Notes: generated by a model not told the origin, from the sequence alone. Counted from the stretch's first letter, positions 3,861 through 55,970 are shown. The stretch is 64,000 bases of DNA from Azolla caroliniana (GCA_043228905.1 JBHGNT010000041.1:166075-230074), one strand, 5' to 3'. Program-made: numbers and translations.

Positions 3861-3986
3861 ATAACTATTCTATTTATTGATTATCTTGTGTATTGTGGAA
3901 TATTTTTGTGTATTGTTGTAGCCCATAGCCATCTTTAATACGTGTCTTTTTTTCGGGGAAATTAGGGTTTAAACCCATCAAGCCAA

Positions 3987-4753: not shown

Positions 4754-4829
4754 GTATTTACATTTATCTCAACATTTGTTTTGACTTTTGAGCTTAGTTA
4801 GTTAGCTTATTAGCTACCTCTGAATATGA

Positions 4830-6070
4830 CCATAGCTAACTAGCTACTAGTAATAGCTAATTAGCTACCATTGATAGCTATTTAGCTGCCTAGAACAATA
4901 GCTAATTAGCGCTAATTATTTGGTTATGACTATAGCTAATTAGCTACCAGAATTGCTAATCCCCTACTGGAATAACTACTATACTAAACTATGGTAGTAG
5001 CTAATTAGCTACTGTATTAAACTATGGTATAGCTAATTAGCTACTGTATTAAACTATGGTAGTAGCTAATTAGCTACCACTTAGCTAATTAGCAACTATA
5101 ACTAAAGTATGGTAGTAGCTAATTAGCTACCACTTAACTAATTAGCTATTGTACTAAACTATGGTAGTAGTTAATTAGCTACCACTTAGCTAATTAGCTA
5201 CTCAACTAAAGTATGGTAGTAGCTAATTAGCTACCAGAATTGTTAATCCCCTATTGGAATAACTACTATATTAAACTATGGTAGTAGCTAATTAGCTACT
5301 GTATTAAACTATGGTAGTAGCTAATTAGCTACCACTTAGCTAATTAGCTACTTAGCTGAAGTATGGTGGTAGCTAATTAGCTACCAATTAGCTAATTCGC
5401 GACTCAACTAAAGTATGGTAGTAGCTAATCAGCCACTATAACTAAAGTATGGTAGTAGCTAATTAGCTACCACTTAACTAATTAGCTATTGTACTAAACT
5501 ATGGTAGTAGTTAATTAACTACCACTTAGCTAATTAGCTACTCAACTAAAGTATGGTAGTAGCTAATTAGCTACTCAACTAAAGTATGGTAGTAGCTAAT
5601 TAGCGACTCAATTAAAGTATGGTACTAGCTAATTAACCACTATAACTAAAGTATGGTAGTAGCTAATTAGCTACTCAACTAAAGTATGGTAGTAGCTAAT
5701 TAGCTACTCAACTAAAGTATGGTAGTAGCTAATTAGCGACTCAGTTAAAGTATGGTACTAGCTAATTAACCACTATAACTAAAGTATGGTAGTAGCTAAT
5801 TAGCTACCACTTAACTAATTAGCTACTACACTAAAGTATTGTAGTAGCTAATTAGCTACCACTTAGCTATTGTACTAAACTATAGTAATAGCTAATTAGC
5901 TACCAGTTAGTTAACTAGCTACTCAGCTAAAGTATGGTAGTAGCTAATTAGGTAAGTGGTAGATAATTAGCTATTGTACTAAACTATGGTAGTCGCTAAT
6001 TAGCTACCACTTAGCTAATTAGCTACCACTTAGCTAATTAGCTACTGTACTACACTATGGTAGTAGCTAA
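4830..6070. repeat. Palindrome-based satellite built on GGTAGTAGCTAATTAGCTAC and AACTAAAGTAT
   Basis: Dozens of exact or near-exact copies of the 14-bp palindrome TAGCTAATTAGCTA in units of about 31-47 bp. Confidence 0.95.
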
Positions 6071-6818
6071 ATGACATGTATTTAACTAATAAAACATAAA
6101 ATTTCGTAAACCATCCTTATGATTTTCCCACAAAAAACTAGCTAAACAAATAGCTAATTAGTTGTGACCATTTTAGTAGCTAATTAGCTATAATAGTGTT
6201 TCCACTCGCATGCTTTTACCCCTAAATGATATTAAAATTTACCAATAAGCAAAATAAACTCTCTTCTTAATAAGAGAGGAAAAGAGCTTTAAACCATGCA
6301 CCTATTAACAAAAAAAAAAAAGTCTAACCACCAAACCATTACATTTTAATATTATTTTTATTAAGTACTTCATTTATTGTTCTAAAAATTGGGTGGTTGG
6401 GCAACCTGCATCAGTCAGGGTTGGGCGACCAAGGACTCAAAGTTGGGTGACCTCTGATAGATTTTTATCGTTCTTTCTTATCCAAATCGGACGGTGCACA
6501 TCGCACACGCCTTCCTTTGAGCAACTTGCACCGTCTGTGGCCGTGATTCCCTCCCCAACCCTATTTATGATTTGGTATAAAATAGACACGAGCTACATAC
6601 ATACATGCATATATACCATACCATACATACATACATGCATACACACACACTCACTCACTCACACACACTCTCTCTCTCTCTCTCTCTCTCTCGTGTCTAT
6701 TATATATACACTAAATCATATATAGGACTGGTGAGGGAATTGTGACCACAGACGATGCAGATTACTCAACCGATGGCGCATGCAATTTGCATCGTCTGAT
6801 TTGGATAAGAAAGAATGT

Positions 6819-8063
6819 TGTTGTGAAGATTTTCAGCAACGGTGTGAAAATTGCATGGAATGTACAAAATCGAGTGTGGTTCTTCACACAAAATATGAAA
6901 CAATAATAATGAAGATATTATTTTATATCTTGGTACGAAAAGATGGATGTCTTCAAGAGCTTCTTAATGCATTTTACTACATGTGAAATGGACAACTTAG
7001 TGTCAAGAAATGTGAGTGTGAAGTTTGAGAAGAAGAAGAGGAAGACAAAACTATGAGATATCCCACATAGATAGGACAAATCAGGATCCCACGGTATATA
7101 ACCAGAGCCAGAACTTGTCACTTTATGTCTATGAGTGGAGCATAGAATGTTCTTGGGCTAAATTGTGGCTTAACTCCTCATAATGGTTTTGGGTGACCAG
7201 ACGGAGACGGAGCCAGAGTTCGGAACTGGAACCGGAACGAATGGCGACGGCAACGGCGACGGAACCAGAACCGGAACGGATGGCGACGATGATGAAACCA
7301 GAACCGAAATCGGTTGGGGACGGCGACTGGACCGGATAGACCGGATCACCATGTCGGATGCGGACCAGATGGACCAGATAGACGGATCGATCAAATAGGT
7401 GATCACGATGATTTCAGTGTGAAACGAACAAAATATCTAGACTAAAAAACCTAGTAAAGGATTGTATACAAAGGGATGCAAGCAAGGCTTGAACCTTGCA
7501 CCTCCAAGATAGGAGACAATAGACTTACCACTAAGCTAAGTCATTTCCATAAAAATGTTCTTTCTATCATTATATTTTTACATGTAATTTCTCATATTAG
7601 AGCTTGATTGAGTGACATGGTTATCATGCATCACATGTAATGCATGAGCGCCAAATGGCAAACATGCATCACATGCATTCCATGCATTATATGCATGTCT
7701 TGTAACCTCACATGCATCATATGCATGGGGGTGTCTATAAAAGAGTGGTTGAAAAAGACAAAAGGGGAGGAGGTATTAATCAGGCAAGCTTTGTACTTTA
7801 TATCAAAATTAATATTAAGAAGAAAATTCGTTATCCAATTGATGATATATCTTGTTCCTCAAATCTAAAGTAAAGGGTTCGATCTTAATCTCTCTCTCCA
7901 TTTCAATCTTTCTCAATCTAAAGTCAAGCGTGCTATCTTATCTCAATCTCTCTCTATCTTAAATACTTTCTCGCTAAAGCTAGTGCAAACTTCGAATCCT
8001 TCTGGTTCAGAACCCCGGTGGTTCTGCCTCACGATCCGCACGTAGTGACGGATCTTCACGACA
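6819..8063 (+). mobile_element. Solo LTR (TGTTGTGAAG...CTTCACGACA) in the left subterminal region of MULE2
   Basis: TG...CA ends with short inverted termini. It interrupts sequence that is contiguous in MULE1. TATA-like CTATAAAAG near 7736. Flanks ATGT/ACAC could be a CpG-decayed ACGC TSD. Confidence 0.6.
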
Positions 8064-8369
8064 ACACGCGAAAAAAAAAATGTTAGAGGTTGCCCAACTC
8101 TGAGTCCTCGGTCGCCCAACCCTGTCAGAGGTCGTCAACTCTGTGTATTTGGTCCCCAAATCCAACCGTTGCAGGCTACCCAACCTTGACCGTTGCAAGT
8201 TGCCCAACCAAATGTGTCATTTCAACCAAAATCTTCAAATAAGCTTGATCTTGAAACTTAAAACTTGCAATAACATATCAGACAGTCACAAAATCAACAT
8301 TAAAATTTCCAAAATCGACGAACTTCACCGTACTTAACATAAGACAAATAATCATCTTAAAGCATACAA

Positions 8370-8650
8370 CTTTAAAACAGAAATAAACTTATAACATACT
8401 TGAAACATAAAATTTAAAACAAAAATCAACTTATAACATACTCGAAACATAAAACTTAAAACAAAAATCAACTTACAACATACTTGAAACATAAAACTTA
8501 AAACAAATATCAACTTATAACATACTTGAAACATAAAACTTAAAACAGAAATCAACTTATAACATACTTGAAACATAACACTTAAAACAGAAATCAACTT
8601 ATAACATATGACATACTTGAAACATAAATCAACATATGACATCCTTTTAA
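8370..8650 (-). repeat. 42-bp tandem repeat downstream of the MULE2 transposase
   Basis: ACATACTTGAAACATAAAACTTAAAACAGAAATCAACTTATA, about 6 copies. Confidence 0.9.
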
Positions 8651-8869
8651 CATAAATCCACTTTAAACATCGTAAACTAAATTGCAAAACCACTCAAGCT
8701 ATGTTTATGGCTCATCCGGACATGATGGCAAGATGCGGCCACAATTGTTGTAACAATCAGAATTTGAGTCCCTTGATCTACGGATCAAGGCATCGTTACA
8801 ATGCAAGCATCGAATCTATCGCACATATTGGCAACTACCTCCTAGCTTGACTTGCACCTCTTTGCATTT

Positions 8870-11617
8870 TTTCGGTGTGTGCCTTGGAAGTGTTTGGGGA
8901 GCTGCCAATAAGATCTTGCGAAATGTTGACTGATGCTTCTCTCTTCGCATCAATTGTTTACTTCCGCATTATGGATCCACCATCTTCTTCATTGGTTGGT
9001 TCCGGTGCACCAACGTGATACCCCACTGTTTGTCTCATTTCTTTGCAAGACGCCATACATGTCAAAACTTTCACATGGTCGATGGATCGTAACCCTTGCC
9101 TAAGACATTGAATAGTTGCCTCAATCATTGGTAATTCTGACTCCCATTCCTCCATATCTGATGCACGCCGATTTGCCTCCTCGACTGGTTCTACCTTTGT
9201 CTCCACTTCGGTTTTTGTGAAATAGTCATTGCACATATGGGCTACATGATCTATAATAGGCAACGACCCACATAGATGTGGCATGTGCCTCTCAACAATC
9301 ATCCAAATGCCAAGTATATGCTTACATTTACTCGCAGGGTCTTGGCAATCACAATATGAGCACTGGAGCGATACATTATACCATAGAGTGGATTTAGTCA
9401 AGCTCAATATTTTTAACCAATATCGGGGCTCGTCCACAATATGCACCATCACATCATTAGTTTCAAACCTCTCTAGTATCCTGTTTGCCTCTTTAAGTCT
9501 TGTTGTTTGATCCCTACAATTAGCATGGGGTGCAAATCTACCACTCTCACATATGTCGTTGCTTGTACCATTCAATAACAGTGCCTCAGACGCAAGTGCT
9601 AGTTTGATTGTCCTTGATTAAAATATGCGCAAGATCGGTAATTGATCGGTTTATTCTCCCTCTCAAGGCTGTATATTTGATAAACTACCAATGTCTCTCC
9701 ACAATATTGGTAGTGTCAACATGTCTGTAGTTGAACATTCTACCAAACTTGGGCCACAGTTTCCTCCACACACATGTCAAGCCACACCATCCTCCTTCTA
9801 TATATTGCCAAACACCTGGCTTGTTTGCATATTCTACCTTTAACTTCTCACATTGGGCACTGAATGTGGATTCCGTAATGCATTGCATGAGTTGGCACAT
9901 CTGATTATAAAGGTGGGCTCTCTCAATTGCACTTACCTTTGGCAACAAGTTGTCCACCCATGTTTTTTTTGTCGTGGAACTGACACAACAAAAGTCGACA
10001 ATGTGTTTGCGACTTTTGCCTATTTGCAACAATCCAAGATAATCGGTCTGTTGCAACCACATTACTTATGGCATTATACGATGTCCAACTTTTATCAATG
10101 ACTATTACATTTGGCCTCACATCGGGCATCCGTGCGAATATGACTCTCAAGCAAGTTTGACCCCTTATCAGAACTACATGTCATGTACCATAATGGGATA
10201 TCAATTCCCATGGTGTTTGGGGCCACAACTGCATATAATGGCAACCCAAATTGATTTGTTTTAAACGTGGAGTCGATTGCCCAAGAGTTGTTTATTGACA
10301 GTCGTTCACACATCTCTAACATCCATTCATCTTGAAGCACCAAGATGAACGGTTGCTTTGCGTGAGCTCCATATTCACTAGGCAAGTAAGGTTGGACATG
10401 AGCCACCTTCCCAAGATCTCGGAGTGTATAGGCATCTTGCATCATCAAAGACCAATCAACCTCTGACATGGCACTCCCAATTTTTAACTTGTTGGCCATG
10501 TTATGGACCTCCATTGATATCATAAAGAACCTATAACTCACAAGGTCTAATGGACTAGCCTTGGACTTATGATACGCTTCCTTATGCATGCTCATTCGTG
10601 CCACATGTCGTGCACATCCAACATAAAAAAGGTCATCTTTGTAACAACTTATAACATTACGGTGTGTTGGCAAATATTACACGTCTGGTCTACTTCTCGG
10701 TACATGAACTGTATGAGGTCCATATATTGAAAGGTTCATGGTCAACCCCGACATTCCTTCAAGTGGCCACATGGAACGTACACCCACTTAAGGATGAAGG
10801 CTTTCTATGTTGACCGCACAGATATTGCCGTATGGGCACACTAGCTCGGTGACAAACATACCTAGTCACACGTGCACCCCTTGCGACCCCTGTACGGAAG
10901 TGTGTGTGATTACCTCTTTTGAACATCTGTGAGCATATCATCTACCTTATGGGCCTTTATCTCGATCACTTCTATGGGTCTAGACTTTTTATATTTCACG
11001 ACACTTGTCCCCTCCATGTCAGATGGAGTTAACCTCGACACAACTTGACAACCACATCGGTCAACCAGTGCTTTCACATACATAGTAGGGATCCCATGGT
11101 CATGAAGGTCATCGGACCAAAGTTTCTTTAACTCTTTCAGAGTACCTGTCAATGGCCAATGAGATGCACCATAATGTGACACCAATACCACCTCCCTCCA
11201 ATTCTCTACGTAAGTAACCTAAAGATTGGGAGATGCCTTAAGGTATATTGCATTCTCATTTCTAATCATGAGACAACTCTTCATGTGCCTCCATGCATGT
11301 AGATTGAGAGGTGCACCCCTTGCGACTGCGCTTAATGCTTCAAACGTTACCTTAACTTGACCCGATAAATCTTTAAGCATTAAATCGTACACACCTCTCG
11401 TGAACGCAAAATACTTGGCCGAAAAGTACATGAAGGGATCAACCTCCTCCTCCTTTGGTTCGTATGAAGACGACTCATAGTCTTCGTCAGATGTAGGCGA
11501 TGCTAACACTTTGTCGGATGAAGACGAATCCAACTCTTCGTTGATAGTTGCATAACCATCCTCATAATCATACAATGAGGTTATCAAATCATGGTCATTT
11601 GGATTCATCTCGATCAC
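8870..11617 (-). pseudogene. MULE/MuDR transposase with SWIM zinc finger (frameshifted)
   Basis: Consecutive minus-strand ORFs contain WAIDSTFKTNQFGLPLYAVV, VIVIDKS...NAI, LLCQFH, DTTNIVERHW and the SWIM motif YCDCQDPASKCKHILG. Confidence 0.9.
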
Positions 11618-11849
11618 TTCTAAATCTTTTAGTGATTAATCCAATAACAAAACGTGACTAATTGAAATTTTAAGACTGAGATGTAGTTAACTAGAGTATG
11701 AATAAGACGTGCCTCTGTGACAACATGAATCAGGTGTGCCTCTGTAATTAATTGCAGGATGAATCAGCTCTGATTAAAATGAGGGTTTAGGGATTGATTA
11801 AGGTGACTTAAATTGTGATTAATTTGTATGTTAATATGACCGTTTTTTT

Positions 11850-12231
11850 ATCAAGTTGGCCGACCCATTAATAGGTTCGATGACAATATTAAAACAGGTT
11901 GGGCAACCTGGTTTACGATATCGAGCTGTTTTTAAAGAGGTTGGACGACCTGGTTTATGAGTAGAGATGTTTTTTATGAGGGTTGGGCGACCTGATTAAT
12001 ATAGGTTGGGTGGCTTGATTAATAGGTTGGGGGACTTGCTTTATAAGAATAGTTGTTAGATAAGAGGGTTGGGCGACTTTATTAATGTAGGTTGGGTGGC
12101 CTAATTAATAAATAGGTTGGGTGACCATATTAAAACTGGTTGGGAAACCCGGTTTATGAGAAGATGTTTTTTAAGAGGGTTGGGCGATCTGATTAATATA
12201 GGTTGGGTGACTTGATTAATAGGTAGGGTGG
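11850..12231. repeat. Array of the GGTTGGGYGACC motif upstream of the transposase; continues at 19056-19220
   Basis: More than a dozen exact or near-exact copies. The motif is also clustered at 6390-6455, 8088-8210 and 23620-23775. Confidence 0.85.
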
Positions 12232-15200
12232 TATTAGAGATCATGGTACTAAAGTAAGCTTAAGATAAGGATAAACTAATGATAGATAGAAAGGAGAAAG
12301 AGAAAGAAGGGTGCCGATCCACCCGACCACCCCCGAGTGAAGGGATCGAGACGGACTCGAGCCTCGATCGGCGTCCCATACCACCACCGTGGCATCGAGT
12401 CGTACCTGGTGCTGGCGTGCTTGCTACAAGAGTTGACCCACCACAAGAGCAGAGTCTCGATGTAGTCAAAAGATGATCCAATGAGGGTAGTTAGGCCTCT
12501 TATTTATAGCGATACCCAAGGCCCCTAGGCAAGTTCACACTTGACCTAATGGGTTGTCTCAATCCCGAGGATTAAAAGTAATCCTCCCCTTCTTTACACT
12601 CTCGTTTAACCCTCACACTTATCCACGTGTATAGAATACTACGGTAATTCTCACCACGGGATATTAAATGGCCATGCCCGTAACATACTCCCCTTCTTTA
12701 AAACATTGCACTCTTGCAATGGAAAGTTAGGGAAATTTGTTCTTAGAGTATTCTCGCGTTCCCATGTGGCATCTTTGATAGATTTGTCCATCCATTTAAT
12801 TTTAAATTCTCGGATTTCTTTAGTACGTAACTTTTTTGTTTTAATATCGAGAATTCTTTTTGGTACATGTGGTTTCAAAGATAAATCTTCAGAAGTAACC
12901 AGAGTTTCAGTTGTAACTGTGTTGTCGCCAGAACCTAGAAGTTCTTTTAGACGACTCACATGGAAGACTGGATGAATTCCAACACCATCGGGAAGAGCGA
13001 GATGATAGGCTAATGACCCAATGCGTTTGAGGACTGTAAAAGGTCCACAAAACCGTGGGGCTAACTTAGCGCACTTACCCGTAGAAAATGTCTTAGAATT
13101 GTGAGATACACGTAAAAATACCTTCTGTCCAGGGTTGAATACACGAGGTTGCCTATGATGGTCATCATAAAAACGCGCTCTATCTTGAGCTGTTTTTATA
13201 TTATCTCGTGCAATATGCAACATATCTTGTATATCCCGAAGAAAGTTTTGCGTACTTCGCAACTCATCATGATGTATATTAACATCAATCGGGGCTCGTG
13301 GCTGAAAACCATACATCAACATAAAAGGACTATATCCCGTCGACGTATGCTTGGAGCTATTATAAGCAAACTCCAAAATTGGGAGATAACGTTCCCATTT
13401 TGTTGGTTTTGCACCAACGTATGCTCGAAGCATGTCCTCAATAATTTGATTTACTCGTTCTGTCTGTCCATTGGATTGAGGATGATCCGTGGAGCTCATG
13501 CTCAACGTAGTTTCTAACTTCTTAAAGACTTGCGTCCAAAATTCACTAGCAAACTTTGGATCTCGATCACTCACGATATCCATCGGTAACCCATAAAAAC
13601 GAAACAATTCGTCAACGAATTGGTAAGCCAATTCAGGAGCTATTACCGTGGTTTTAGTAGCAATAAATTTGGCCATTTTAGTTAGTCGATCAATGACAAC
13701 CCAGATGGCATCATGACCTTTTTGGGTGCGAGGAAGGCTAACAATAAAATCCATGGATATACTTTCCCACTTATTATTGGGAATGTCCAAGGGATGTAAA
13801 AGTCCTGCGGCTTTAAGTCGCTCGGGTTTGTTAACCTGACACTGGTGACATTTAGTCACATAGCTATGTATGTCAGGACGCATCTTAGGCCAATAAAAAT
13901 GAGTGGAGATGAGAACGAGTGTATGATGTATTCCAGGGTGCCCTGCTGAGGGTGCACCATGGCATTAAAGAAGAATCCTCTTTTTGACCTCGGGTAAATC
14001 TGGAACACAAACCTTCCCATTACGATAGAGCAAACCGTTAGCAATGTGGAAGTATTCCTTCGAGGATGTGGTGGTGTATGTTCCAGACTCAACTCTTGCC
14101 CAGTATTTTGCAAAATAACTTTCATCGGGATACTTTCCTCAAAGGTGATCATAAAGATCTTATGTTATTTCAGTGAAGCTAAGCATGTTAACTTCACAGA
14201 TGCGTCTTAGTGCATTAGCGACAGTGTTCATGGAACCTTCACGATATCGTATGGAAAAATCAAAGTCCTGGATGAGATCAGCCCATTGTGCCTTACGACC
14301 TTTCAAGTCTTGTTGGTCACAAAAATATTTCAAGGACTCGTGGTCTGTAGTTACCACAAAGCGATTTCCATAAAGATAATGGCGCAATGTTTTGAGCGCA
14401 TGTATAACTGCAAATAATTCCTTTTCTTGAACGGTATACCGACATTGAGCAGAATCAAGTTTCTTACTCTCGAATGCTATTGGTTTACCATCTTGATACA
14501 AGAAAACACCTATAGCATAATTGCTTGCATCGGTTTCAACCTCAAAAGGTTTTGAAGGATCAGATAAAAGAAGTGAAAGAGCCTTGCAAACCAAGTCCTT
14601 GAGTTCCTTAAAGGCGAGGTCTAGTGTAGCATTCCACACAATAGGTTTTGTAGACTTACGCCTTTGACCTTTTAAAATATCAGTAAACGGCGTCGTCAAT
14701 TGGGAGTAATTACGAAGAGACTTTCGCAAAAACCCAACAAAACCAAGGAATGATCGAACTTCTCGAATATTCCGAAGAGTGGGCCAAAGCTTGATTTTCT
14801 CAATGTGAGAAGGATCAATTTCAACTCCTTGTTCGGTTATGAGATGTCCTAGATAAGTAATTGATTTCTTGAAGAACTCACATTTTGAGATCTTCGCATA
14901 AAACTGTTTGTCACGCAATGTTTGTAAAATGAAGCGGACATGTTTAGCATGTTCTTGTAATGTACGGCTATAAACTAAAATATCATCCAAGAAAATAATG
15001 ACAAATTTTCCAAGTTGTTCTCGGAAAATGTCATTCATTTCTTGTTGAAAAGTAGTTGGAGCATTGGTCAAACCAAAAGGCATAACCAAAAACTCGTAAT
15101 GGCCATAGCACGTACGAAATGCCGTTTTAGGAACATCGTCCTCACTTATTCGTATTTGATGGTAGCCAGTACGGAGATCAAGTTTTGTAAAATACTGAGC

Positions 15201-18200
15201 TCCTTGGAGACAGTCAATTAGATCGTCAGCCCGGGGCAATGGATACGGATTCTTGATCGTCACTTTATTCAAGCGTCGGTAATTAATACACATACGCCAT
15301 GTGCACTCTTTCTTTTTTACCAAGAGAACTGGTGCACCCCATGGAGATTTACTATAACGTATGTAACCCATTAGTAAATAGTCCTTGAGTTGCTTAGATA
15401 CCTCATCCTCTTCGGATCGACTTAAGCGATAAGGAGGTATACTTATTGGTGCAACACCAGGTACAATATCTATACGATGGTCTATATTACGTTTAGGAGG
15501 TAAGCCATCTGGTAGTTCACTCGGAAAAACATCACAAAAATCATTTAAGATTTCATCAAGTTGTTGTTGTTCAAAATATGTTCATTGAACTGAGACATTA
15601 TCGATATTGTAAACGTGAATGTCCGGATCAAGTACACAATAAAATAGAGTAGAACAAGACAACTCGGATATTGATGGACACGAGGAAACAATCGAGAGGG
15701 ATTGTTTTTTTACACATTGAATAAAATGAGTACAATCGTTCGGTACAAATGTAATTGAATGATGAACCAAATCAATAGATAAAGAAGAGTTTTTATTATA
15801 AAACCAGGGATAACCCAGTATTACATCGGTGGTACAAAGATTCATTACATGGAAGTCTACTTCCTCTATATAAGTATCAATAGATATTCCTAATGAATGA
15901 ATTGCCTCGTTGATGTATTGTACTCTTCTATCAGCCAAGTGCACCGTGTAGGTGTGATCACTTACGGTGGGTTGGATTCCCCATATCTGAACCAAACGAT
16001 CATTCACAAAATTGTGTGAGCTTCCCGAATCAAATAAAAATTGTACGGGAGATCCATTGATATACCCGTTTGCACGTAGTAAATAATTGGGACCCAATAC
16101 ATAGTGAGGGAAAAAACATTGAGAATTACTTAAATGATGTGTATAGACTTGAAGGACATTAGGAATCTGACTTTTATGGTCTGCAGCTTTAGCTTTGTTG
16201 TCGTGCTCTTTCCGTTGGAGCTTTCGACATTGATCTTTTGTATGACCCTTCTTTTTGCAGAATACGCAAAAAGGATGTTGTCGCTTACAATCGCGATCCA
16301 TGAATTCATTGGGTGTCTTGCGTTTCCCAACGAATTGCGACTGCTTAGTCCCAGGCGCTTCGTTGGGTTTGTTGTGGTCCTTCTTCGAAGTGCGTTGATA
16401 GCGAAGAACTATTTCAACGGCATCTTCGAAGGATTTTGGATCCTTATCGTGCACTATCCAGTGATAGTCCGAATTGGGGATGCCATTGACAAAACAAGCT
16501 ATCAACCAATTGTCCCCTTCTAGACCCGATTTTTGGATTTGGGTTGTAGCATGGTGAACATAGTCTTCTAGCGAGGAAAATTTCTTACTAAAAAGGTTCA
16601 TTAAAGCTTGTGTTGCCTCGGTTCGAGAGGGAGGTTGCAGAAATTGGCCCTTAAAAACCGTGACAAAATCTGTCCAGGTATTGGGCAATTTCCCCATAGT
16701 ACGGAGCCCACGCCACCAGGCGGCGGCCTTACCCCCGAGTTCTCAACCGACATATGCAATCTTCGTACTATCTGGTGTGGGATAGAGCTCAAAATGAGAC
16801 TCCCATCGTCCCAGTCATGTGCAAATTGCTTCTTCGGTTCTTTCCTTTTTGTCTCCCGTAAATGGCTTAACGACAAATGATGGTTCACCTTGTCACTCAT
16901 CAGGTCTATTAGTCTCACGTTGTAGACTAATGACACGTGCCTCAAGAGCACTCTGAGATTGCCGAAGTTCGGTCATCTGTTCAGCGGTGAAACTAAGGTA
17001 TTGGGTTATTTGTGCCAAATACATCTCAGTGGACATTTGTCCAGGAGGATTCCCTTGAGTTCCTTCTGCTTGAGCGGATGACATCGGGTCGTTAATTTGA
17101 GCCATTAAAGATTATTTCTGGAAAAGAAATAGGATAAGGTCAGAGAGATAGTCATAACATCATGTCGTGATGTAAACATATCATGGGCAAACATTAATCG
17201 ATATCATGATCTCACGTCAATACCCCTCTAGACGTATGAGATGAGGTTCAAGATCAGGTTACTATGGTAACACAAAGGTGTTTTAAAAACCATGGAGGTG
17301 ACAATTTAATGTCTTTCCCTGATCTCTATATCGATTTTTTCATGGTGGCTCCCTGAGGCTCAACCATGTATGTTCGCGTCATGAGTAGTTTATACACGAA
17401 AAAAATGTTAACAATAAACTATGTTTCTTTGCCCACATATGTGGTTTCGGCTCTTTAAGTCCTATTACGAGGACCCCGAGGTGCACTTAGACCTTAAGTC
17501 TAAACATGTGTTATAGTCATATGTATCAAGGATGTTGTATGGTCTTGGTCATATTTGAACTCGAGACCTCGAGAACAAATACATTAAACACTTGAGCCAA
17601 CCAAGTAAGTTGCTCTTCTCGAATGCTTAATGTTTGATGCGTATAAGAGATATGCGAGGCATTTGATCATATATGTTTTTTTTAAAAGAACATATATGTC
17701 AAGGGTCCTTATTTCGCCCTCATTTACCAAAACTATGTTGGTACGTTACCTAACCTCAACTATCGTAATTACGATGGCATACGCCAAAGTGCAACCTAAT
17801 GGTCAAGCCAAATGAGCCCTCGTTTCATAGTAGGCCCACGTGGCCCATCACATGGTCACGTCATTACGAATGCCTCTCGTAAGAACGAGCTCATGGTGGC
17901 ATCGTATCCATGTAACGAGGGAGGGATGTTGGATACGTAGGTCATTGGAGCGACCTCACTTGAAGTGGGTCAAGCCCTACGTACTCAAAATCATTATGGC
18001 TATAGGCGTTTCTTTACGTAACGAAATCGAGGTCATCAACGGGGTTGTCAACAATCAAAAATTGTTGAAAAAGGGATGGTGACAACGCCATTCTCACAAA
18101 AATGTGAGGACGGCCACCAACATCCTTTTCCCGACAAGGACAACTTTCGATATAATCACGTAATAACGAATATACACATATGTTTACTTATCACATATAT

Positions 18201-19055
18201 ACGATCAAACACATATATACGTGACCACATATGCCTATATTAAACATATCGTTAAAATTAAATAGCCAAAAATGATGTGATCGAGATACGTAATCAAGGT
18301 ATATAAACCTCTACGCACACGAAACATCCACAAATAAGAGATCATCATAATACACAATTGAGGTATTGACCTCTTACGCATACGAGACCAAACGCATATC
18401 CTTTACAACAAATCAAGGTATTAAACTCATACGCAAACGTAACATATGTTCGTGAACGTAATATGTAATTGAGGTATTAACCTCGTACGCATACGACACT
18501 CATCACATATTATTTATATGTCAAACGAGGTATTGACCTCGTGCACATATGTAAACGTTTTAAATAATCAATTAAAGACCACTACAACATCATTGACTTA
18601 ATGAAAAAAAATGACATATAAACTAAACACATGATTAGATGGGAGAAGAGAGAATAGAAAAAAAAAATTTATTACGGAAAGAGTTACCGAAGTTCTTCGT
18701 TGATCGTTGTCTGGATCAAGGCCGACCGCACATCGATCGATCACCATCAATCAAAAGACAAAAGACAAACAAAGAAACATTAGTACATAGCTCTGATACC
18801 AAATATTAGAGATCATGGTACTAAAGTAAGCTTAAGATAAGGATAAACTAATGATAGATAGAAAGGAGAAAGAGAAAGAAGGGTGCCGATCCACCCGACC
18901 ACCCCCGAGCGAAGGGATCGAGACGGACTCGAGCCTCGATCGGCATCCCATACCACCACCGTGGCGTCGAGTCGTACCTGGTGCTGGCGCGCTCGCTACA
19001 AGAGTTGACCCACCACAAGAGCAGAGTCTCGATGTAGTCGGTCATGCCCGTAACA
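12232..19055 (-). mobile_element. Ty3/gypsy chromovirus copy 1 (degenerate)
   Basis: TSD GGTGG at 12227-12231 and 19056-19060. 5' LTR 18804-19055 and 3' LTR 12232-12685. tRNA-iMet PBS (reverse complement GCTCTGATACCA) at 18790-18801. PPT adjacent to 12686. Confidence 0.95.
12651..17105 (-). pseudogene. gag-PR-RT-RH-INT-chromodomain polyprotein, frameshifted
   Basis: CCHC motif [14 protein letters not shown], protease FDSGS, RT FLDDIL, RNase H ETDAS, integrase SDRD/GQTER and C-terminal chromodomain. Near-identical to 39497-43930. Confidence 0.95.
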
Positions 19056-19639
19056 GGTGGCCTAATTAACAAGTTGGGTGGGATTAATAGGTTGGGTGAC
19101 CTGATTAATATAGGTTGGGTGGCCTGATTAACTTGTTTATGAGAAGAGATGTTAGATAAGAAGGTTGGGCGACCTGATTAATAGTGGTTGGGTGGCCTAA
19201 TTAATAGGTTGGGTGATCAATGTCAAAAATAGCAGACACAAATGAAACAACATATCTTTAAAAACAACAAACATAAATCACAATATGAGTGAGAAAACAT
19301 CATATCTTTGAATAAAAAACAATGAAACACCAGATCAATGAAACAATCACTTTATGAGTATGAAACAATAGATCAACTTATAATAGACAGACACTTTACA
19401 TAAACAACTTTTCCATTAATAAGTATTTTCAATATACAATGAGTTGAAACTCACTATGTAAAGAGTGGACCATAATTACAACATCCGTCAATAACAAAAT
19501 ATAATACCACATTTACAACATCCGCTCGTAGACAATATATTTACAATTATATGACGATATTTACAATATCCGTCGTAGACAAAATATCTATGGCCATGAC
19601 AAAATTTGGGTAGCCATGACAAAATTTACATTATGGGGC

Positions 19640-20360
19640 CACTAGTTGCAGCTGGAAATCCCTGTACCCTTCGTGCCCACTCATCCACATGAATCCGAAG
19701 TGAATCCACTTCGCGTTTGGTGAACCACATCGATGTGCCCTGTCACCAAATATGTATAAGAACACAACTATACAAAATCCACATAATACATCCATTTGCA
19801 ACTACACTTACAAAAGTCGGAGATATCCATCCTCGTAAGAACTCCTCGCCAACATCTGTATAGTCTTCATCACGTAAAAGCCACAATCCCAACCACTTGG
19901 CTGAGTTTGGATATGCAATACATGATGTCGACCCTCAGGGACAATGGTGTGGCTTGATGGTTCATTAGAAATTGTCCGAATTGCGATCTCCACAAGACTC
20001 CGCAAGTTGCTAGTCCTCGCGTCGTTTAGTGAATCGCAGAAGACTACTTTGCTTGTCAACTTAGAAACTTTGTGTTGCATCTTTGTCCACAAAACCTAAT
20101 GAACCTGAACCATGATTGGAATGAAGATGAAATCATGGTCATCCACCTTCCCAAGGATGTTTTGCCCCTTCGTCGTTTGGTTGTGTAGCTGCAACCATAG
20201 TGGGTCGACTATGGTGAATCGTTCTGTCACATCAGGTGGCAATGAGTACTCCATAAACGTGGTGAATAATATCATCATCATGTTGATGCCTTTTCTCCAT
20301 CCTTGCCCATGGTCTCAAGTTCTGACTTTGTAATGTCAACTGCCATATCGAGTCATCTAC
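19640..20360 (-). pseudogene. Ulp1-like (peptidase C48) domain of the MULE2 accessory gene
   Basis: FTIVDPLW...DFIFIPIMVQVH*(W), FCDSL and QPSGWDCGFYVMK give the His-Asp-Gln-Cys order of C48 proteases. Confidence 0.8.
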
Positions 20361-20575
20361 AGGTCAGCTGGTACATATATGTATAGAAACATGCATGTAT
20401 CATGAATTAAAACAAACTTAATGTTGGTTAGTAGGATAACAATTGACAAACACAAATAAATGACCTAGAAAAATGTTTGTCTGATGTTTGCGTAGACACA
20501 TCGGATAGGTTTAGAGCCTCACCTACATCAGTGGACACACCACCCTCTTCGGTGGATATCCCTGCCTTTTTACGT

Positions 20576-21336
20576 TGTTGTGCCTTTTAGCGTCAGATCG
20601 TTTGCGTGAGTCGGGTGGGAACCGCTGGGGTTTTGGACTAGGAAGAGGAAGAATTTGAGACGATTTTAATTATAAATAGATTATTATAAACTTGCGAATC
20701 CCACAAGTATAATATATTTTATTAATCAGTATTTAGATAAGAATATGTATTTAGATTGAAAGAAAGATATAAGAAACTTGTGAATCCCACAAGTATAGAT
20801 TATATTGTTTTCGTGAATCCCACGATTATATTAATTGGTTGGTGTTTTTGGAAATATATCCAATTTCCAAGTATTTCACACCCCTTTTACATTGTGCTCC
20901 CCATCCTTATGTAGTGATGAGGGAGTCTTAATAATCCATGCTTTTTTTTCCTAACTATAGGCTCCATGCTTTTCTTATAGATAGACTATATGCTTTATCT
21001 AAAGTGATCATGCTTTTTCTAACTTGTGCGTTTTTATCGACTATAGCGTTCATGCACGCTAGATGTGCATGCGTAGCTTTTTCTTTTAGCATGCGTTTTT
21101 CTTTTAACTAAAGTTTATCCTACGTGAACTTAGCTTTCTATGTGGGACATCTACTTTTTAACACTAATGAAATGCTAGTGTAATGGTAAGGTTTCACATT
21201 ATTAAAATGGAGGTGCAAGGTTTGAATCTTGCCCTATGCATGTTATATATATTTTAATATTTTCTACTATTTATTCATATTTATTAAATCGGTACTTTAT
21301 AAGTTTTTCACATAGTGTACGAAATACACTACGACA
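20576..21336 (-). mobile_element. Solo LTR related to 6819-8063
   Basis: TG...CA ends with an exact 4-bp TSD ACGT at 20572-20575 and 21337-21340. It shares AACCTTGCACCTCC and AACCCCRGYGGTTC blocks with the LTR at 6819. Confidence 0.7.
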
Positions 21337-21429
21337 ACGTGACTATTTCACCACAATAAGACACATGTTATTATCTGCATTCTGCCTATAAACACTCCAA
21401 CACATATCAAGAATGAAATCCTCGCACAT

Positions 21430-22290
21430 ACTTACATAAGAATCCAAACCAGAAGAAATCTTCTTCTTCAACATCTCCAACCACTCATCCTTTTTGGAGT
21501 CGTAGATCGCCATCTCATGGTCCATAAATCGTGCCACAAACTCTGCCTCTGTGTCACGTCAAAGTTCAACGGGAATAGAATTGAACCTCGAAACAACCCT
21601 AAACTTCAACTTCCAGATGTATGATTGCCGATTGCTATGGTACTTGATTTCGGGGTCCATGAATCTTTTGAGTGATCTCTGAAGCTCATAGCTATTGAAA
21701 CATACCCCCGGAGTACCCTCCTCTATACGCAACACTCGTGGTAGAACTATGGCAATTCCATGTGCCCTATGTAAATGTGTTTCCATGTCGAATTATTTGC
21801 GATACCACCATAGCGAGAGGCTGCAATACTCAGCCACAATACATGCATTGGCCTTGTTCCCATTTGCATCTCTTCCAACCTTATACAACGAGTCTGGGCT
21901 AGGAGCATTTGTTGTTTCTGTATGTGTTAGATATGCTAGACCATTTGTTACATAAAGATTGACCTAATACAACGAGACCAAATCCACATACCATTTGGAG
22001 GAGCATCTTTGTCGAATGATGCCATGGCCTGTATGGGCTCGACCCGAGGATGATGAACCACCAATGCCTAATCCATGCTCTCCCCACCCTTAGACATGTC
22101 GGTTGCACAACTTCGCCAATGTCTTCTAACGAAAACCCTCTAACAAATCATCAGTCAGCATACATGCATCACACATCATTACCACTATTAGGGGAAATTG
22201 GTTCGTGACATACCTCTCTTGAGTTGGATATTTATCACCATTATCGAAATCCCAACACTCTTTGTACTTGGACCTAGCAACCATCTACCA
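21430..22290 (-). pseudogene. Upstream exons of the MULE accessory gene, domain unrecognised
   Basis: EFVARFMDHEMAIYDSKKDEWLEMLKKKISSGLDSY followed by a GTAAGT donor. The homologue at about 46830-46950 reads KFMAHEMAIYDSTKDQHMEKFKLKVVVATESY with the same donor. Confidence 0.6.
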
Positions 22291-22339
22291 CCATTCAAGG
22301 AAAAGAAAACATATAGAAATGACGCAAAATCGTAAATAA

Positions 22340-23400
22340 GTAATCAACCGTAAACCATTAATAATCAATAAGTCTTTGCAAGTCTATTCTATGATCAATA
22401 AGCTAAACATGTTCTAAACCTTCTCCCTAACATTCTAATATCAAGCCATAATTAACAATCCGCAACGGTCCGGTTCCGAAATGAACCGAATTGCGAAACC
22501 ACGACTTAACAGTTTAAACGGTTCGGTTCAAGTTCAAGTTTTTTTTAACGGTTCGGTTTGGATTGGGGGGTGAATGGTTCGGTTCGGTTCGGTTTTAATT
22601 GTTTGAAATTGCAGTTTAAATGGTTTGATGGTTTTTAAAAAATTTTAAAATAAAAATAAAATTTTTAAATTTTTAAACAACCTTTTTATTTTTAAGCCTA
22701 ATCCTCAAATTTTGGGAAAAATCTTTAAATTTTTGAATTTTTGAATTTTTGAATTTTTACTTAAGTTGAAAACCGAAACGACGGTTTTAGCGGTTTAATG
22801 GTTTAACCGTTTGGATTTTTACCAAACGGTTTGGTTTAAATGGTTTTGGTTTCGTGGTTCAGTTCAGTTCAAGTTTCAATATTTTTAAACGGTTCGGTTT
22901 GGACAATCTCGAACCGAACCGAACCATTGCCGATTGTTAGCCATAATATCAAGTTAATATCATAACATCAATTGTAAACCATTAATAATCAATATCAAGC
23001 TAATGTCATAATATCAACCGTAAACCATTAACATTCTAATATCAAGCATTAATATCATAGTATCAACCGTAAACCGTTAATAATCAATATCAAGCTAATA
23101 TCATAATATCATTAATAATTAATATCAAGCTAATACCATAATATCAACCGTAAACCATTAACATTCTAATATCAAGCATTAAACCGTAAACCATCACACA
23201 TCTGTAATGATCAATAACCTAAACATGTTCTAAACTGTTCCTAAGAATAAACCTAATCATTGTATCAAGCCAAACCCTAAACAGTTTCTACAATCATACT
23301 ATCACGCTAAACCCTAAACCTTCTCCCTAACATTCTAATCTCAAGCCATTATATCAAGCTAATATCATAATATCAACCAAAACCTTCTCCCAAACCATAA
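22340..23400. repeat. AT-rich ~45-bp tandem repeats in a putative 5' intron of the accessory gene, split by the MITE
   Basis: ATCAACCGTAAACCATTAATAATCAATATCAAGCTAATATCATAAT recurs. Minus-strand donor AG|GTATGT near 23472. Confidence 0.7.
22453..22939. mobile_element. hAT-type MITE, 487 bp
   Basis: TIR TAACAATCCGCAACGG versus reverse complement TAACAATCGGCAATGG. 8-bp TSD GCCATAAT at 22445-22452 and 22940-22947. GGTTC subterminal repeats. Confidence 0.85.
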
Positions 23401-23935
23401 TCCCTCAACATGAAAAAGCCAACCACATAATAAAAAAAAGCAGAAAACGTAGAGACAAACACAAATACATACCTGGGAAATAGTAGTGTGGCTATGGCAT
23501 ATGTGATTGCTGGAAATGTCGATTGCATGCTGCTTGAAAAAAATCACTTTCCCGGCAAAAATACCTGTCAATCTTATTTGAAAAATGAGAGATAATGACA
23601 GGTTTTTAGGTTTTATAGTCGTTAGTTGGGCGACCAATGTACTCTGAAGATACATGCGGTTGGGTGACCAACTTACTTTGAGGATACATGTGGTTGGGCA
23701 ACCTAATTAAAAGGTTGGGCGATCCCTCCACACTTAATGGGTTGGGTGACCACGCGTCGGTTGGGCGACCTCTCAACAACTTTTTTAGTCGCGCTCTTTT
23801 TTATTATCCAAATCGAACAATGCAAATCGCACACACCATTAGCTGAGCGACCTGCACCATCTGTGGTTGTGATTCCCTCACCAGCCCTATTTATGATTTG
23901 TTGCATAATAGACACGTCGATACCATACCATACAT

Positions 23936-26545
23936 GCTCGTGTCTAACTACTACCAAATATTAAAGAGGGCAAGTGAGGGAATCGCGAGCACAGACGGTG
24001 CATGTCGCTCAACTAAGGGCATGTGCGATCTGCACCGTCTGATGTGAATAAAAAGTTGACAGCCTCTGTCACCAAGAGCCCAACTCTTTGACAGCCTCTG
24101 TCACTAGGAGCTCGACCAACTATGGGTAGGAGCCTGACTCTTAAATAATTGAAAGTAAAAAAAATAGAGTAGTAAGTGAATAGGGTATTGATTAGAGTTG
24201 TTTGGAAAATTTGTTAGGTGTATGGTTCGAATTTTTTTTTTCTTTAAATTCTTTCTTTTTGGGTTTTCTTCTTCTTCGACTTCTTTCTTTTTTAGGGTTC
24301 CAACATTTGGTTTAGGGTATGTAGTCACTTTACACTTCATTTACATTTAAAGGTTCATAATGGTGGTATTGAATTCAACACCTTAATTACTAAATGTGTT
24401 CATGGTGCCATAATAGTCTAAAAGCTGTAAAATTGTCATCATCAAACACTTAACCATATGTTGTTGACCGTACCTTTGTGCCCTAGTATATACTAAACAT
24501 TTGCAAACTTTGATTGATACAAGTGGACTTATGCTTTAGTTGCCAAATTGAACATTTGTATTTCTGTAACTCTTAAGATGCTTCTTTTCATAATTCACTG
24601 ATGACATTCCAAATAAGATTTTTCTCCATCTTAGATATCCTCTAATGTGCAATATTCTTGCCAAAGATCAAGCAAGTTGAGAACTTTAAAAGATGAAAAG
24701 TTGATGTATTGGAAATTTCTAAGGTGGCCTATGCATGGATTGCTACGATAGTGCAATCAAATTTTCTATCATTGAATTCTTAGCCAAGAATGCATGCGAG
24801 AGTTTTAGGTGGAATGCCCTTGAACTATTTTGGCAACATGATACAACCAAATAGATCTTTATAGAAGGTCAAAATAATTATTTATTTAATGCTTGTCTAC
24901 TTCAAAATAGCTTGAATACACATATTCATAACTTTGCTTGGAAAGTGATTTTGTAGCTCAAACAATATTGGAAGCAAATACTACCTGATTTTCTCACTTC
25001 TTTTTATAGTTGATAATCAGCTCACTTCTTTTTACAGCTTGCAAGAGCTCATTTGCCAAATAAAAATAGAATGGCAAGCATCACCACTTCTCCCTAGATG
25101 GTCACTTAGCTTACACAATTATTATATCATAGTTTCACATTTACAAGTTACAACATGATGAATTCTCATCTTTTGCAATTGTAGATCTTTTACTCTATGA
25201 TCCTTGTAATCCACATTGAGCCCTTAACACTTTTGTTCAAGTAAAGTTAGCTCTTACCATTCGGGCTATGTTTGATTGTCACTTTAATATGCAACTCACT
25301 CATGTTCCAAGTAAAGTTAACTCTCATAATTTGGACTTTTTCTTGATTCTTTGACTTTATACCATGGAATACTCTATTTATGGATCATGATCCAACACAA
25401 GAAGAAATGACACATTCACATTTTCAAACTCACTCATGTTCCATGTAAAGTTACCTTTCATAATTTGGGCATTTTCTTGGTTCTTTGACTTTATACCATG
25501 GAATACTACTACCTACGGATCATCAACTAACATAAGAAAAAATGACACAATAACACATTCACATTTTTAAACTCGCAGAAAGCATTGGACACCACTTGGA
25601 ATTTCCAAGGTTAAATAGAAATAGCAAACAACTACTAAAGAGTACCAGAAACAGTGGCATCTATAAAATTTCAATTCCACATGAAAGATTCCATATTAGT
25701 GTGTAAAAATAAATTTCCATACATACATCTCTCTGCAGTACCAGTATCAATATATGACTACAAAGTAGAAACACTGGAACTGTGTTCATTCCACCACCAG
25801 AGCAATACTGACGTGATTGAAAACAATGAATCCGAGGTAAAAGAGGCTATTGTGTCCAATATACCCATTATAGGCTATTGTCATGGAAGACTACAACTAA
25901 TATGGCCGATATCGTCCTGAACTTCTACCAGTATTTGTTCTGTTACCATGTCCATGTCTTTGACACTATGAACCCAAACCGAAACTTCAGTGATCTCTGT
26001 ATGGAGCAAAGCTTGTGATAACTTTCAACTACGAGGTCCTTGATAAGGAATCAACAACCTCTACTAGCGCCAGTAAAAGATTTCCATATTCCCCACCACA
26101 CCATCGATCTGCATCATCTCACAATACTTCATTCCACCTCCCTTCAAGTTTTCCAACCCCTTTCCCCATCATAGTTGATTCGTCCATCCTAAAAATGCAA
26201 TGTAACCACAAATCCATGTTATCAAGACAAAAACATCTTATACCTTAGATTTCATATCTAATATCGAATTACGTTATATATCTAAGTCAGGCTCCTCAGC
26301 CTACTACCTGAGGTGAGTCAAGCTCCTCGAGCGCCTGCTTCAGTTGAGTCAAGCTCCTTGGGCTCTTGCTTCAATTGAATCAAGCTCCTTGGGCTCCCCA
26401 TAAAGTGAAAATTTGAGAGCGCGCTTTTTTTATCCACATCGGACGATGTAGATCGCACGTGCCCTCAGTTGAGCGACCTACATCGTCTGTGCCCACGATT
26501 CCCTCACTTGCCCTCTTTAATATTTGGTAGTAGTTAGACACGGCG
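23936..26545. mobile_element. MULE copy 3: non-autonomous, 2.6 kb
   Basis: Well-matched ~120-bp TIRs (CGTGTCTAACTACTACCAAATATTAAAGAGGGCAAGTGAGGGAATCG...). 10-bp TSD TACCATACAT at 23926-23935 and 26546-26555. Confidence 0.9.
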
Positions 26546-26623
26546 TACCATACATACATGTTGTCATGCATACACAATACATACATACATACATACATAC
26601 ATACATACATACATACATAACAT

Positions 26624-27182
26624 TGTTGGGAAAACTAGTCCCTCCAGATGGGAAGAAGAGAAATCAAATGGAGTCAATTGAGTACTAATCGGTGAGATAA
26701 GCCGAATCAATTGATTGCCAACTCGGCCGAGGCGAAAAAATCGAATAATAATAGTTTGGCTAATAGCCAAATCAGCCGAAGTCGACTCGATGCTAGATTT
26801 GTAAATAGTCATATATGAACACGAGTATAAATATTCTTAGGGCAAGTAGTTAGATTATTATTATGATTGTTGTTGAAAAGTTACAATTTGTAGTTGCTTC
26901 TGTAACTAATGTATGTGTGTATGAGAGAGAGAGTTGTAACTCTACAATTGTCTGTAGACGAAGAGAAGCTCAAGGTTGTTGCCTTAGAGTCTTATGTGTA
27001 TTCCTTTTACATATAGTGATTTCTTGGAGTTTGCAGACTCCTGTGGTTTTTCCCCTTTTCGGGTTTTCCATGTAAAATACTTGTGTCTCTATACTTCTAT
27101 CAATTTCTATTTCGGTTTCTTTTGTCTTGTTTTTGCATTTGACTTGCTACCCAGTTGTGTCCGGTCTCCCTCATTTACAACA
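26624..27182 (+). mobile_element. Solo LTR inserted in the (TACA)n spacer
   Basis: TGTTG...CAACA ends. 5-bp TSD AACAT at 26619-26623 and 27183-27187. Confidence 0.85.
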
Positions 27183-27529
27183 AACATACACACACACACA
27201 CACACATATATACGCTTGTGTCTATCTGCTATGAAATCATAATAAGGTCCGGTGAGGGAACCATAGCCACGAGCGTGTGGCGATTTGCACTGGCAGATCA
27301 TTATCCAAAAAGCGCGGCATTTGCACCCTCTATCACCATGAGCCCAACTCTGACAACATCTGCCACTAGTAGCCTGACTCTTTGGAAGCTCATGTCATCA
27401 AGTGCCCGACTAAAAGTCTAACATCAAAAACTTCAAAAAGCTTCTACCATTAAAACAACAATATGACATCAAAAACTCTGAGTTTGAAATATATAAAACT
27501 TCCACCATTAAAAGTAAAACACACCCATT

Positions 27530-28640: not shown

Positions 28641-28765
28641 TCACCATATTCACCAACATTTCAAAATACCATTTACACTTTGACACCATATTCCAAATGT
28701 TGAATCACATATATACACATTAATGCCAATCACCACATGGTCACTATGACACCATATATAAAATG

Positions 28766-34181: not shown

Positions 34182-34234
<53 letters not shown>

Positions 34235-55439: not shown

Positions 55440-55493
<54 letters not shown>

Positions 55494-55539
55494 CTCTCTC
55501 TCTCTCTCTCCTCTCTCACACACACTCTCTGTCTCTTCT

Positions 55540-55572
<33 letters not shown>

Positions 55573-55911: not shown

Positions 55912-55970
<59 letters not shown>

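What the first reader, a model, noticed from the sequence alone, without database searches (positions are those of the whole stretch)
6478..27270. Train of four related Mutator elements docked end to end in one (TACA)/(TACCA) microsatellite: possible microsatellite-targeting MULE family
Seen: six TIR ends of one family at 6593, 6689, 23919, 23936, 26545 and 27214. Neighbouring ends are separated only by simple-repeat DNA; one spacer is just 16 bp (ATACCATACCATACAT), and another also holds a later solo LTR. Copy 3 has the TSD TACCATACAT, and the same ATACCATACCATACAT string occurs at about 6613. The termini are asymmetric: (G)CTCGTGTC at one end and CG(A/C)CGTGTC at the other. Known: MULEs make 9-11-bp TSDs and usually lack strict targets. 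Inference: this family recognises TACA/TACCA repeats and regenerates the target through its TSD, so it builds self-extending arrays.
Basis: partly seen in the sequence, partly recalled or inferred. Interest (0 to 1): 0.8.

Follow-up and report, generated by a model that had tools for sequence, protein, structure and literature searches.

The report
TACA-microsatellite-targeting Mutator transposon family
Four related jumping genes sit end to end in one short (TACA)n repeat; their family lands in or beside such repeats across this plant genome and likely does so by ordinary cut-and-paste, a new version of a habit already described for TA repeats in flowering plants.

Summary
Six TIR ends lie at the stated places and belong to four Mutator-like elements (MULEs) of different subfamilies, so this is not a duplication. 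The preference is genome-wide: (TACA)3 lies within 60 nt of 50 of 91 position-ordered ends, against 1 of 3320 random tiles, 0 of 46 LTR ends and 1 of 29 ends of other MULE clades. About 19% of ends abut another copy. Young copies (97.8-99.7% alike) include ones with an unbroken 979-aa transposase; one scanned copy also has an Ulp1-protease region. Of 42 paired elements, 24 have perfect 9-bp TSDs, 19 of them in or beside tracts, which points to ordinary cut-and-paste. One empty allele already holds the tract. Corrections: TACCA is local (0 of 91), the preference is not strict, E1 and E2 have lost their TSDs, and E4 lacks its far end. The phenomenon is published (SaTar, MuTAnT, Ac-mMITE). New here are the tetranucleotide target, a fern/lycophyte-type transposase clade, and clean TSDs that argue against the SaTar recombination model. 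The scan's notes showed no earlier report of this family.

The parts
1878..6593 (+). E1, right-hand part: subterminal 42-bp repeat (1878-2106), an unrelated insertion of about 3.8 kb, and the GCTCG-type (A) TIR ending at 6593. The CGATG-type (B) end and an Ulp1 fragment lie upstream of the window (C41:151177 onward). No transposase found; no TSD.
6594..6688 (.). Junction 1 (A end to A end): TACA/TACCA repeats, then CA, CACT and (CT)12
6689..23919 (-). E2: decayed autonomous-type MULE, A end 6689 (first base altered), B end 23919; about 86% identical to the youngest copies over the transposase; no adjacent TSD
8708..11614 (-). E2 transposase gene, broken by stops and frameshifts; pieces 63-87% identical to the intact 979-aa protein
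12232..19049 (-). Nested chromodomain Ty3/gypsy LTR retrotransposon inside E2 (LTRs 97.9% alike); a later insertion
19664..20248 (-). E2 Ulp1/C48-protease-like region, same strand as the transposase, broken
   Evidence: (Peptidase_C48 5e-4)
21346..21927 (-). E2 copy of a third conserved reading frame (289 aa in young copies, no Pfam match); possibly an exon of the Ulp1 gene (inference)
23920..23935 (.). Junction 2 (B to A): 16-nt spacer; its last 10 nt are E3's left TSD
23936..26545 (.). E3: 2610-bp non-autonomous element; TIRs 88% alike; perfect 10-bp TSD (23926-23935 and 26546-26555)
26546..27213 (.). Junction 3 (B to A): (CATA)n tract, solo LTR 26624-27182 with 5-bp TSD, then (CA)n
27214..47697 (-). 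E4: older decayed autonomous-type MULE. A end at 27214; transposase remains 27545-28641, Ulp1 remains 34469-34869, further remains 46824-47697. Split by two copia elements and a gypsy element; far TIR not found.

Best explanation
These are four independent insertions of one Mutator-like transposon family whose ends lie in or beside (TACA)n microsatellites far more often than chance, likely because its cut-and-paste complex is drawn to pre-existing tracts. Shown: MULE transposase, asymmetric TIR ends, 9-bp (sometimes 10-bp) TSDs, strong but not strict TACA bias, and end-to-end junctions in all four orientations. Inferred steps: (1) the complex is tethered to a TACA-rich, purine-pyrimidine-alternating tract and cuts within about 30 bp of it, sometimes a few bases inside a neighbour's TIR; (2) insertion splits the tract and leaves target on both sides; (3) tracts beside an element lengthen by slippage, and existing ends may also attract transposase, so occupied sites are hit again and trains grow; (4) slippage later erodes old TSDs, as at E1 and E2. 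Whether the transposase itself, the Ulp1-bearing protein or a host factor reads the tract is untested; the transposase is my best guess.
For: Flanks with (TACA)3 within 60 nt: 92 of 150 BLAST-picked ends and 50 of 91 position-ordered ends (the two sets overlap). Controls: 1 of 3320 random tiles, 0 of 46 LTR ends, 5 of 146 flanks 240-300 nt further out, 1 of 29 ends of other MULE clades. Of 31 paired insertions, 23 lie within 31 nt of a tract; 16 have tract on both sides, on the same strand in 15. Perfect 9-bp TSD in 24 of 42 pairs and 10-bp in 2; cross-paired flanks match in 3 of 2244. At C6:4824133 a contig of run X3 joins the two flanks without the element (74 nt on the short side) and keeps the tract with one TSD copy; the occupied allele is one 22-nt unit longer. 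A contig of run X2 gives a weaker joint (30 nt). None of the 22 tracts I counted in the first 100 listed (TACA)5 matches has an exact-motif end beside it. 17 of 91 ends abut another TIR, against roughly 3% expected (my estimate). E2 and E4 are 77% alike and E2 is 86% alike to young copies.
Against: 41 of 91 ends lack (TACA)3 within 60 nt, and 19 of 91 have no simple or alternating repeat at all. 8 of 31 insertions have no tract within 300 nt. 16 of 42 pairs lack a perfect TSD at the called ends, E1 and E2 among them. The empty allele rests on one locus and one good contig; it could be a precise excision or a paralogue, and a second locus gave nothing usable. The array excess is a rough estimate and tract density varied widely (1 in 200 kb, 0 in 98 kb, 20 in 400 kb). 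No targeting domain was identified: the model is low-confidence (pLDDT 53) and the N-terminal region has no named match.
Confidence: 0.78

Rival explanations
1. The tracts are largely made after insertion: the element lands in short ATAC/CAT-rich seeds, and repair or slippage at its ends grows them into microsatellites (the expansion proposed for maize TAFT, as cited in PMC5907723).
For: The occupied allele at C6:4824133 is 22 nt longer than the empty one. Higher-order repeats start at the TSD, such as a 33-nt unit filling a 347-nt spacer. Terminal segments are tandemly duplicated with their flanks.
Against: The empty allele already holds a tract. Five perfect-TSD copies have grown none. About 5,000 long tracts exist for about 290 elements (my estimate).
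Confidence: 0.12
2. Insertion is by homologous recombination of an excised circle carrying microsatellite filler into a genomic tract (the SaTar model of PMC5907723).
For: E1 and E2 lack TSDs, and junction 1 has mixed repeat types, as described for SaTars.
Against: 19 of the 24 perfect 9-bp TSDs are in or beside tracts, and 16 of those 19 contain bases that break the repeat. Some TSDs overlap a neighbour's last bases, which a staggered cut explains.
Confidence: 0.04
3. Insertion is random and selection keeps only copies in harmless microsatellites.
For: Microsatellites are mostly non-coding; safe-haven arguments are made in PMC4486113 and PMC8449440.
Against: The enrichment is over a thousand-fold against random tiles, and LTR ends and other MULE clades in the same genome do not show it. 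Near-identical young copies show it too.
Confidence: 0.04
4. The train is a segmental or tandem duplication of one insertion.
For: A TACCA-containing string is shared by junctions 1 and 2.
Against: The copies differ in orientation, size and subfamily (TIRs 56-88% alike, interiors about 77%), and E3 has its own TSD.
Confidence: 0.01

Closest known systems
SaTar MULEs and autonomous AgS-/ArS-MULEs of guayule, rice, sorghum and citrus (PMC5907723; parts 1-4 of 6 read, supplements not read)
   Same: MULEs flanked by microsatellites, assembled end to end into arrays of different families. About 30% of gSaTars are linked; a minority sit in ordinary DNA with TSDs.
   Different: SaTars are mainly in (TA)n, mostly 0.4-1.9 kb and non-autonomous (autonomous ones described as defective), said never to interrupt each other, and often without TSDs in tracts. 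Here the target is (TACA)n ((TA)6 at 1 of 91 ends), intact-ORF 7-9 kb copies exist, TSDs in tracts are perfect, and a few copies sit inside a neighbour's TIR.
MuTAnT/AutoMuTAnT of Medicago truncatula (PMC4486113; parts 1-2 of 4 read)
   Same: MULE family with a putative autonomous member, a strong microsatellite preference, 9-nt TSD, and empty sites that already hold the repeat
   Different: (TA)n target, GGGG ends, Jittery-like 833-aa transposase, no arrays or Ulp1 reported in the text read. Here the nearest named relatives are from ferns, lycophytes, amphioxus and green algae; a direct alignment with Jittery was not possible.
Ac-mMITEs of pineapple (PMC8449440; passages) and rice Micron (seen only as cited in PMC5907723 and PMC12550479)
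   Same: Mutator-derived, microsatellite-flanked, clustered by adjacent insertion (46% in pineapple). (TC)n/(GA)n next to the ends is attributed to slippage, as is likely for the (CT)12 at E2's left end.
   Different: Small MITEs in (TA)n; no autonomous partner found in pineapple.
Ulp1-carrying MULEs, e.g. Arabidopsis KAONASHI (PMC2528002; passages)
   Same: MULE with an Ulp1/C48 protease domain beside the transposase
   Different: KAONASHI is non-TIR with Ulp1 in reverse orientation. Here TIRs are present and both genes are on one strand; the passages read mention no microsatellite target.

Membership tests
Mutator/MULE superfamily | DDE transposase with MULE domain | tested here: met
   Pfam PF10551 E 3.6e-8, above cut-off. 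D448, D515, H555 and E647 align with other MULEs. The best fold match is the ISCth4 transposase, E 1e-4, from a low-confidence model (its IS256/Mutator kinship is recalled).
Mutator/MULE superfamily | 8-11 bp TSD | tested here: met
   9 bp perfect in 24 of 42 pairs, 10 bp in 2; range from PMC6446971
Mutator/MULE superfamily | Long TIRs | tested here: met
   About 120-200 bp, imperfect, with different terminal bases at the two ends
SaTar-type MULEs | Most copies flanked by microsatellite | tested here: met
   50 of 91 ends with (TACA)3; 72 of 91 with any simple or alternating repeat, against 65 of 3320 tiles
SaTar-type MULEs | End-to-end arrays of different families linked by microsatellite | tested here: met
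   The window train; 26 junctions on other contigs, 18 with (TACA)3; a three-element train on C5
SaTar-type MULEs | Never interrupt one another | tested here: not met
   Copies lie inside or overlap a neighbour's terminal bases at C1:28008605, C6:11746686, C20:7538616, C1:26442162 and C5:18849641
SaTar-type MULEs | Flanks in tracts often inconsistent with a TSD | tested here: not met
   19 tract-associated insertions have perfect 9-bp TSDs. The loss is seen in some copies, such as E1 and E2.
SaTar / MuTAnT / Ac-mMITE | (TA)n as main target | tested here: not met
   (TA)6 at 1 of 91 ends; long TA tracts are also rare in the control (1 of 3320)
MuTAnT | Jittery-like transposase | tested here: inconclusive
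   No FAR1 or MuDR DNA-binding Pfam domain. It forms a clade apart from the AFT/FAR1-type and MuDR-type MULEs of the same genome. No Jittery or AutoMuTAnT sequence was available to align.
KAONASHI-type Ulp1-MULE | Ulp1 protease domain | tested here: met
   Peptidase_C48 E 3.1e-8 in a young copy
KAONASHI-type Ulp1-MULE | No TIRs; Ulp1 reverse to the transposase | tested here: not met
   TIRs present; same strand
Target-specific transposase | Protein binds or integrates at the tract directly | not testable with these tools
   Needs a binding or transposition assay

The most novel reading that the evidence does not exclude
A deep MULE clade of seed-free plants (relatives in amphioxus and green algae) evolved microsatellite targeting independently of the angiosperm TA-targeting MULEs. 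Its transposase reads TACA-type alternating tracts, and its arrays grow by positive feedback. Intact, polymorphic, perhaps still active copies would give a tractable system to find how a Mutator transposase picks a microsatellite and to retire the recombination model.
Probability: 0.45. Interest if true: 0.62.

Novelty: new variant of a known kind. Interest (0 to 1): 0.4.

Why it matters
How MULEs, which normally lack a strict target, come to target microsatellites is unresolved. The SaTar paper proposed recombination of circles because TSDs were often missing. Here young copies, several with intact reading frames, keep perfect 9-bp TSDs inside impure tetranucleotide tracts, where a TSD can be read. 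That points to ordinary transposition with later slippage, and it offers cloneable elements to test which protein does the targeting. It also extends the habit to a likely fern and to another transposase clade, which suggests convergent safe-haven targeting. The general phenomenon is already known, which caps the interest.

Tried and rejected
A first TIR pattern had one N too many and found 1 match; the corrected pattern was. E4's TIR found only itself by DNA search. No far end of E4 was found by profile or motif; the tracts at 48065 and 55160 have no TIR beside them. The train does not extend upstream of E1's far end within the 30 kb fetched. The GGACG motif hits (9 of the first 100) share flanks with each other and are the inside of an unrelated repeat; they were dropped. 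A preference for tract edges or interruptions was tested and not shown (3 pure TSDs of 19, 5.7 expected, P 0.11). No clear strand bias of either end to the tract (A 34:23, B 18:17). Laying contigs on the C10 locus gave only an ambiguous 26-nt joint. No RNA holder was listed, so expression is untested. PDB sequence search found nothing. The Atlas search of residues 50-200 gave only weak leads. Paper searches for a fern or TACA-targeted MULE found none; the library is incomplete and Repbase could not be searched. The scan's own notes held nothing on this family.

Full report
Observation. The window is the last 64 kb of contig C41 of a 523-Mb plant assembly. A profile from the six claimed ends finds those six as strong hits, with 56-88% pairwise identity. 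They define E1 (ends 6593), E2 (6689-23919), E3 (23936-26545) and E4 (from 27214). The spacers are 95 nt, 16 nt and 668 nt; the last holds a solo LTR with a 5-bp TSD. E3 has a perfect 10-bp TSD. E1's other end is at C41:151177, beside a (CATA)n tract, with no further TIR in the 30 kb fetched upstream. E1 points the opposite way, has no transposase match and no TSD. E2 lacks an adjacent TSD. The string at 6613 matches E2's right flank for 20 nt once E3 is taken out, and TACCATACC occurs in 0 of 149 other flanks. The two junctions therefore likely come from one ancestral tract that was later reshaped by slippage (inference). E4 continues in three pieces to 47697 between nested retroelements, and no far TIR was found.

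Identity. E2 and E4 carry broken transposase and Ulp1-like genes. A search with one E2 piece scored 150 of 489 candidates; five have a stop-free 979-aa frame and four a 988-aa frame. The 979-aa protein has a Pfam MULE domain, and a neighbouring frame has Peptidase_C48. The catalytic D, D, H and E positions align with other MULEs. A low-confidence model (pLDDT 53) best matches the ISCth4 transposase. Nine young copies are 97.8-99.7% identical over 4 kb. Named relatives are from Adiantum. Ten more distant hits, of 150 listed, were looked up: Selaginella (2), Diphasiastrum, Branchiostoma, Prasinocladus and Chlorella, with four having no taxon name. The host is likely a fern (inference). In a tree of 34 DDE regions this group is separated (100/100) from the AFT/FAR1-type and MuDR-type MULEs of the same genome, the nearer of which are about 20-23% identical (midpoint root; one row dropped as too short; long-branch warning for Chlorella).

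Target preference. Of 163 TIR ends first collected, 150 were scored (7 on the window's contig and 6 with short flanks or unclear ends were dropped). 92 have (TACA)3 within 60 nt, against 1 of 3320 tiles from 20 arbitrary 10-kb regions, 0 of 46 ends of the solo-LTR family and 5 of 146 flanks 240-300 nt out. An exact end motif has 350 matches genome-wide (control 6). All of the first 100 by position were fetched; 9 were an unrelated repeat, and 50 of the other 91 have (TACA)3 (overlaps the first set). In those 91, an alternating purine-pyrimidine run of 16 or more occurs at 64 (control 22 of 3320), (CA)6 at 11 (7), (TA)6 at 1 (1), (GA)6 at 0 (35) and (TACCA)2 at 0 (1); 19 have no such repeat. 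Ends of other MULE clades, taken from 19 regions, score 1 of 29. One sister-family element has a tract about 20 nt from one end. The bias is therefore strong, clade-specific and not strict.

Mechanism. Of 42 paired elements, 24 have a perfect 9-bp TSD, 2 a perfect 10-bp TSD, 3 one mismatch and 13 none at the called ends. By eye, several of those 13 are mis-called or duplicated ends. Cross-paired flanks match in 3 of 2244 trials. Nineteen perfect TSDs lie in or beside tracts and only 3 are pure TACA, so they can be read; this fits a staggered cut and not recombination into the tract. Of 31 insertions, 23 lie within 31 nt of a tract and 8 have none within 300 nt. Some TSDs include a neighbour's last bases, leaving spacers of 5-9 nt. 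At C6:4824133 one contig of run X3 joins the flanks without the element and keeps the tract, one 22-nt unit shorter than the occupied allele; run X2 gives a weaker joint. This is one locus and could be an excision or a paralogue; a second locus was uninformative. It supports a pre-existing target with some later growth. Tethering, the targeting protein and the growth step are inferred.

Arrays. 17 of 91 ends have another TIR facing them within about 350 nt; in the first set the figure is 40 of 150. Junctions occur in all four orientations, and a three-element train lies on C5. My rough expectation runs as follows. There are about 320 true motif matches at a capture rate of 58 of 104, giving about 290 elements, some 160 in tracts. 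The 22,636 overlapping (TACA)5 matches, at 22 tracts per first 100 listed (hand count), give about 5,000 tracts, so about 3% occupancy. The observed 19% is several-fold higher, so occupied sites seem to be reused. Shorter tracts would lower the expectation further; length weighting could raise it.

Comparison. PMC5907723 (parts 1-4 of 6 read) describes this architecture as SaTar MULEs, mainly in (TA)n, and proposes recombination of circles. PMC4486113 (parts 1-2 of 4) describes TA-targeting MuTAnT with a Jittery-like transposase. PMC8449440 (passages) describes clustered pineapple elements. Ulp1-bearing MULEs are known (PMC2528002, passages). A survey of active plant MULEs reports mostly random targets (PMC12973397, passages). 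A MULE phylogeny has no mention of ferns or Selaginella and could not confirm amphioxus MULEs (PMC6446971, passages). Searches found no paper on a TACA-targeting or fern example; supplements were not read. The family works like a SaTar but fails three SaTar features (TA target, strict non-nesting, missing TSDs), so I file it as a MULE and as a new variant of microsatellite-targeted MULEs.

Verdict. Interest 0.40. The value lies in intact-ORF young elements and readable TSDs that make the targeting mechanism testable.

Noticed in passing
window 52764-54533: Three to four perfectly identical 440-bp tandem units (100% and 99.8%); either very recent or an assembly artefact near the contig end.
   Followed up: no
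window 37331-44381: Chromodomain gypsy element with a 1510-aa open frame and LTRs 99.8% alike, nested in a copia element; 91% alike to the gypsy inside E2.
   Followed up: partly
window 55913-56602: Host signal-peptidase SPC12-like frame (Pfam 1e-12) preceded by long His-rich (CAT)n and (CATCGC)n repeats and by unoccupied (ATAC)n, (CA)n and (CT)n tracts at 55160-55644.
   Followed up: no
window 320-1222: 300-aa minus-strand frame resembling a LINE ORF1-type coiled-coil protein (resemblance recalled; no significant Pfam match), inside E1.
   Followed up: no
window 2630-6190: Insertion inside E1 with long arrays of a palindromic TAGCTAATTAGCTA motif, 85-90-bp repeats and a weak HTH frame (4205-4618); element type not determined.
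   Followed up: no
L290 (C5:14714699-14715019) and L286 (C5:18840022-18840180): The A-type TIR end plus its flanking microsatellite is tandemly repeated at about 160-bp period; short 15-25 nt terminal fragments also occur in several spacers.
   Followed up: partly
L254:8229-8575 (C10): 347-nt spacer between two copies made of a roughly 33-nt higher-order repeat whose unit starts with the TSD.
   Followed up: partly
P0032 (Branchiostoma floridae, 633 aa): 36% identical to this plant transposase over 450 aa and inside its clade, although PMC6446971 could not confirm MULE transposases in amphioxus; old lineage or horizontal transfer, not tested.
   Followed up: partly
L101-L102 (C4:11994789-12001592): Sister family with a 1046-aa frame (45% identical), GCTCG-like end, 9-11 bp TSD and a TACA tract about 20 nt from one end.
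   Followed up: partly
L109-L110 (C12:17852330-17862094) and L066: Copies inserted in (GATGAAT)n and (ATG)n tracts, so CAT/ATG-rich repeats other than TACA are also used.
   Followed up: partly
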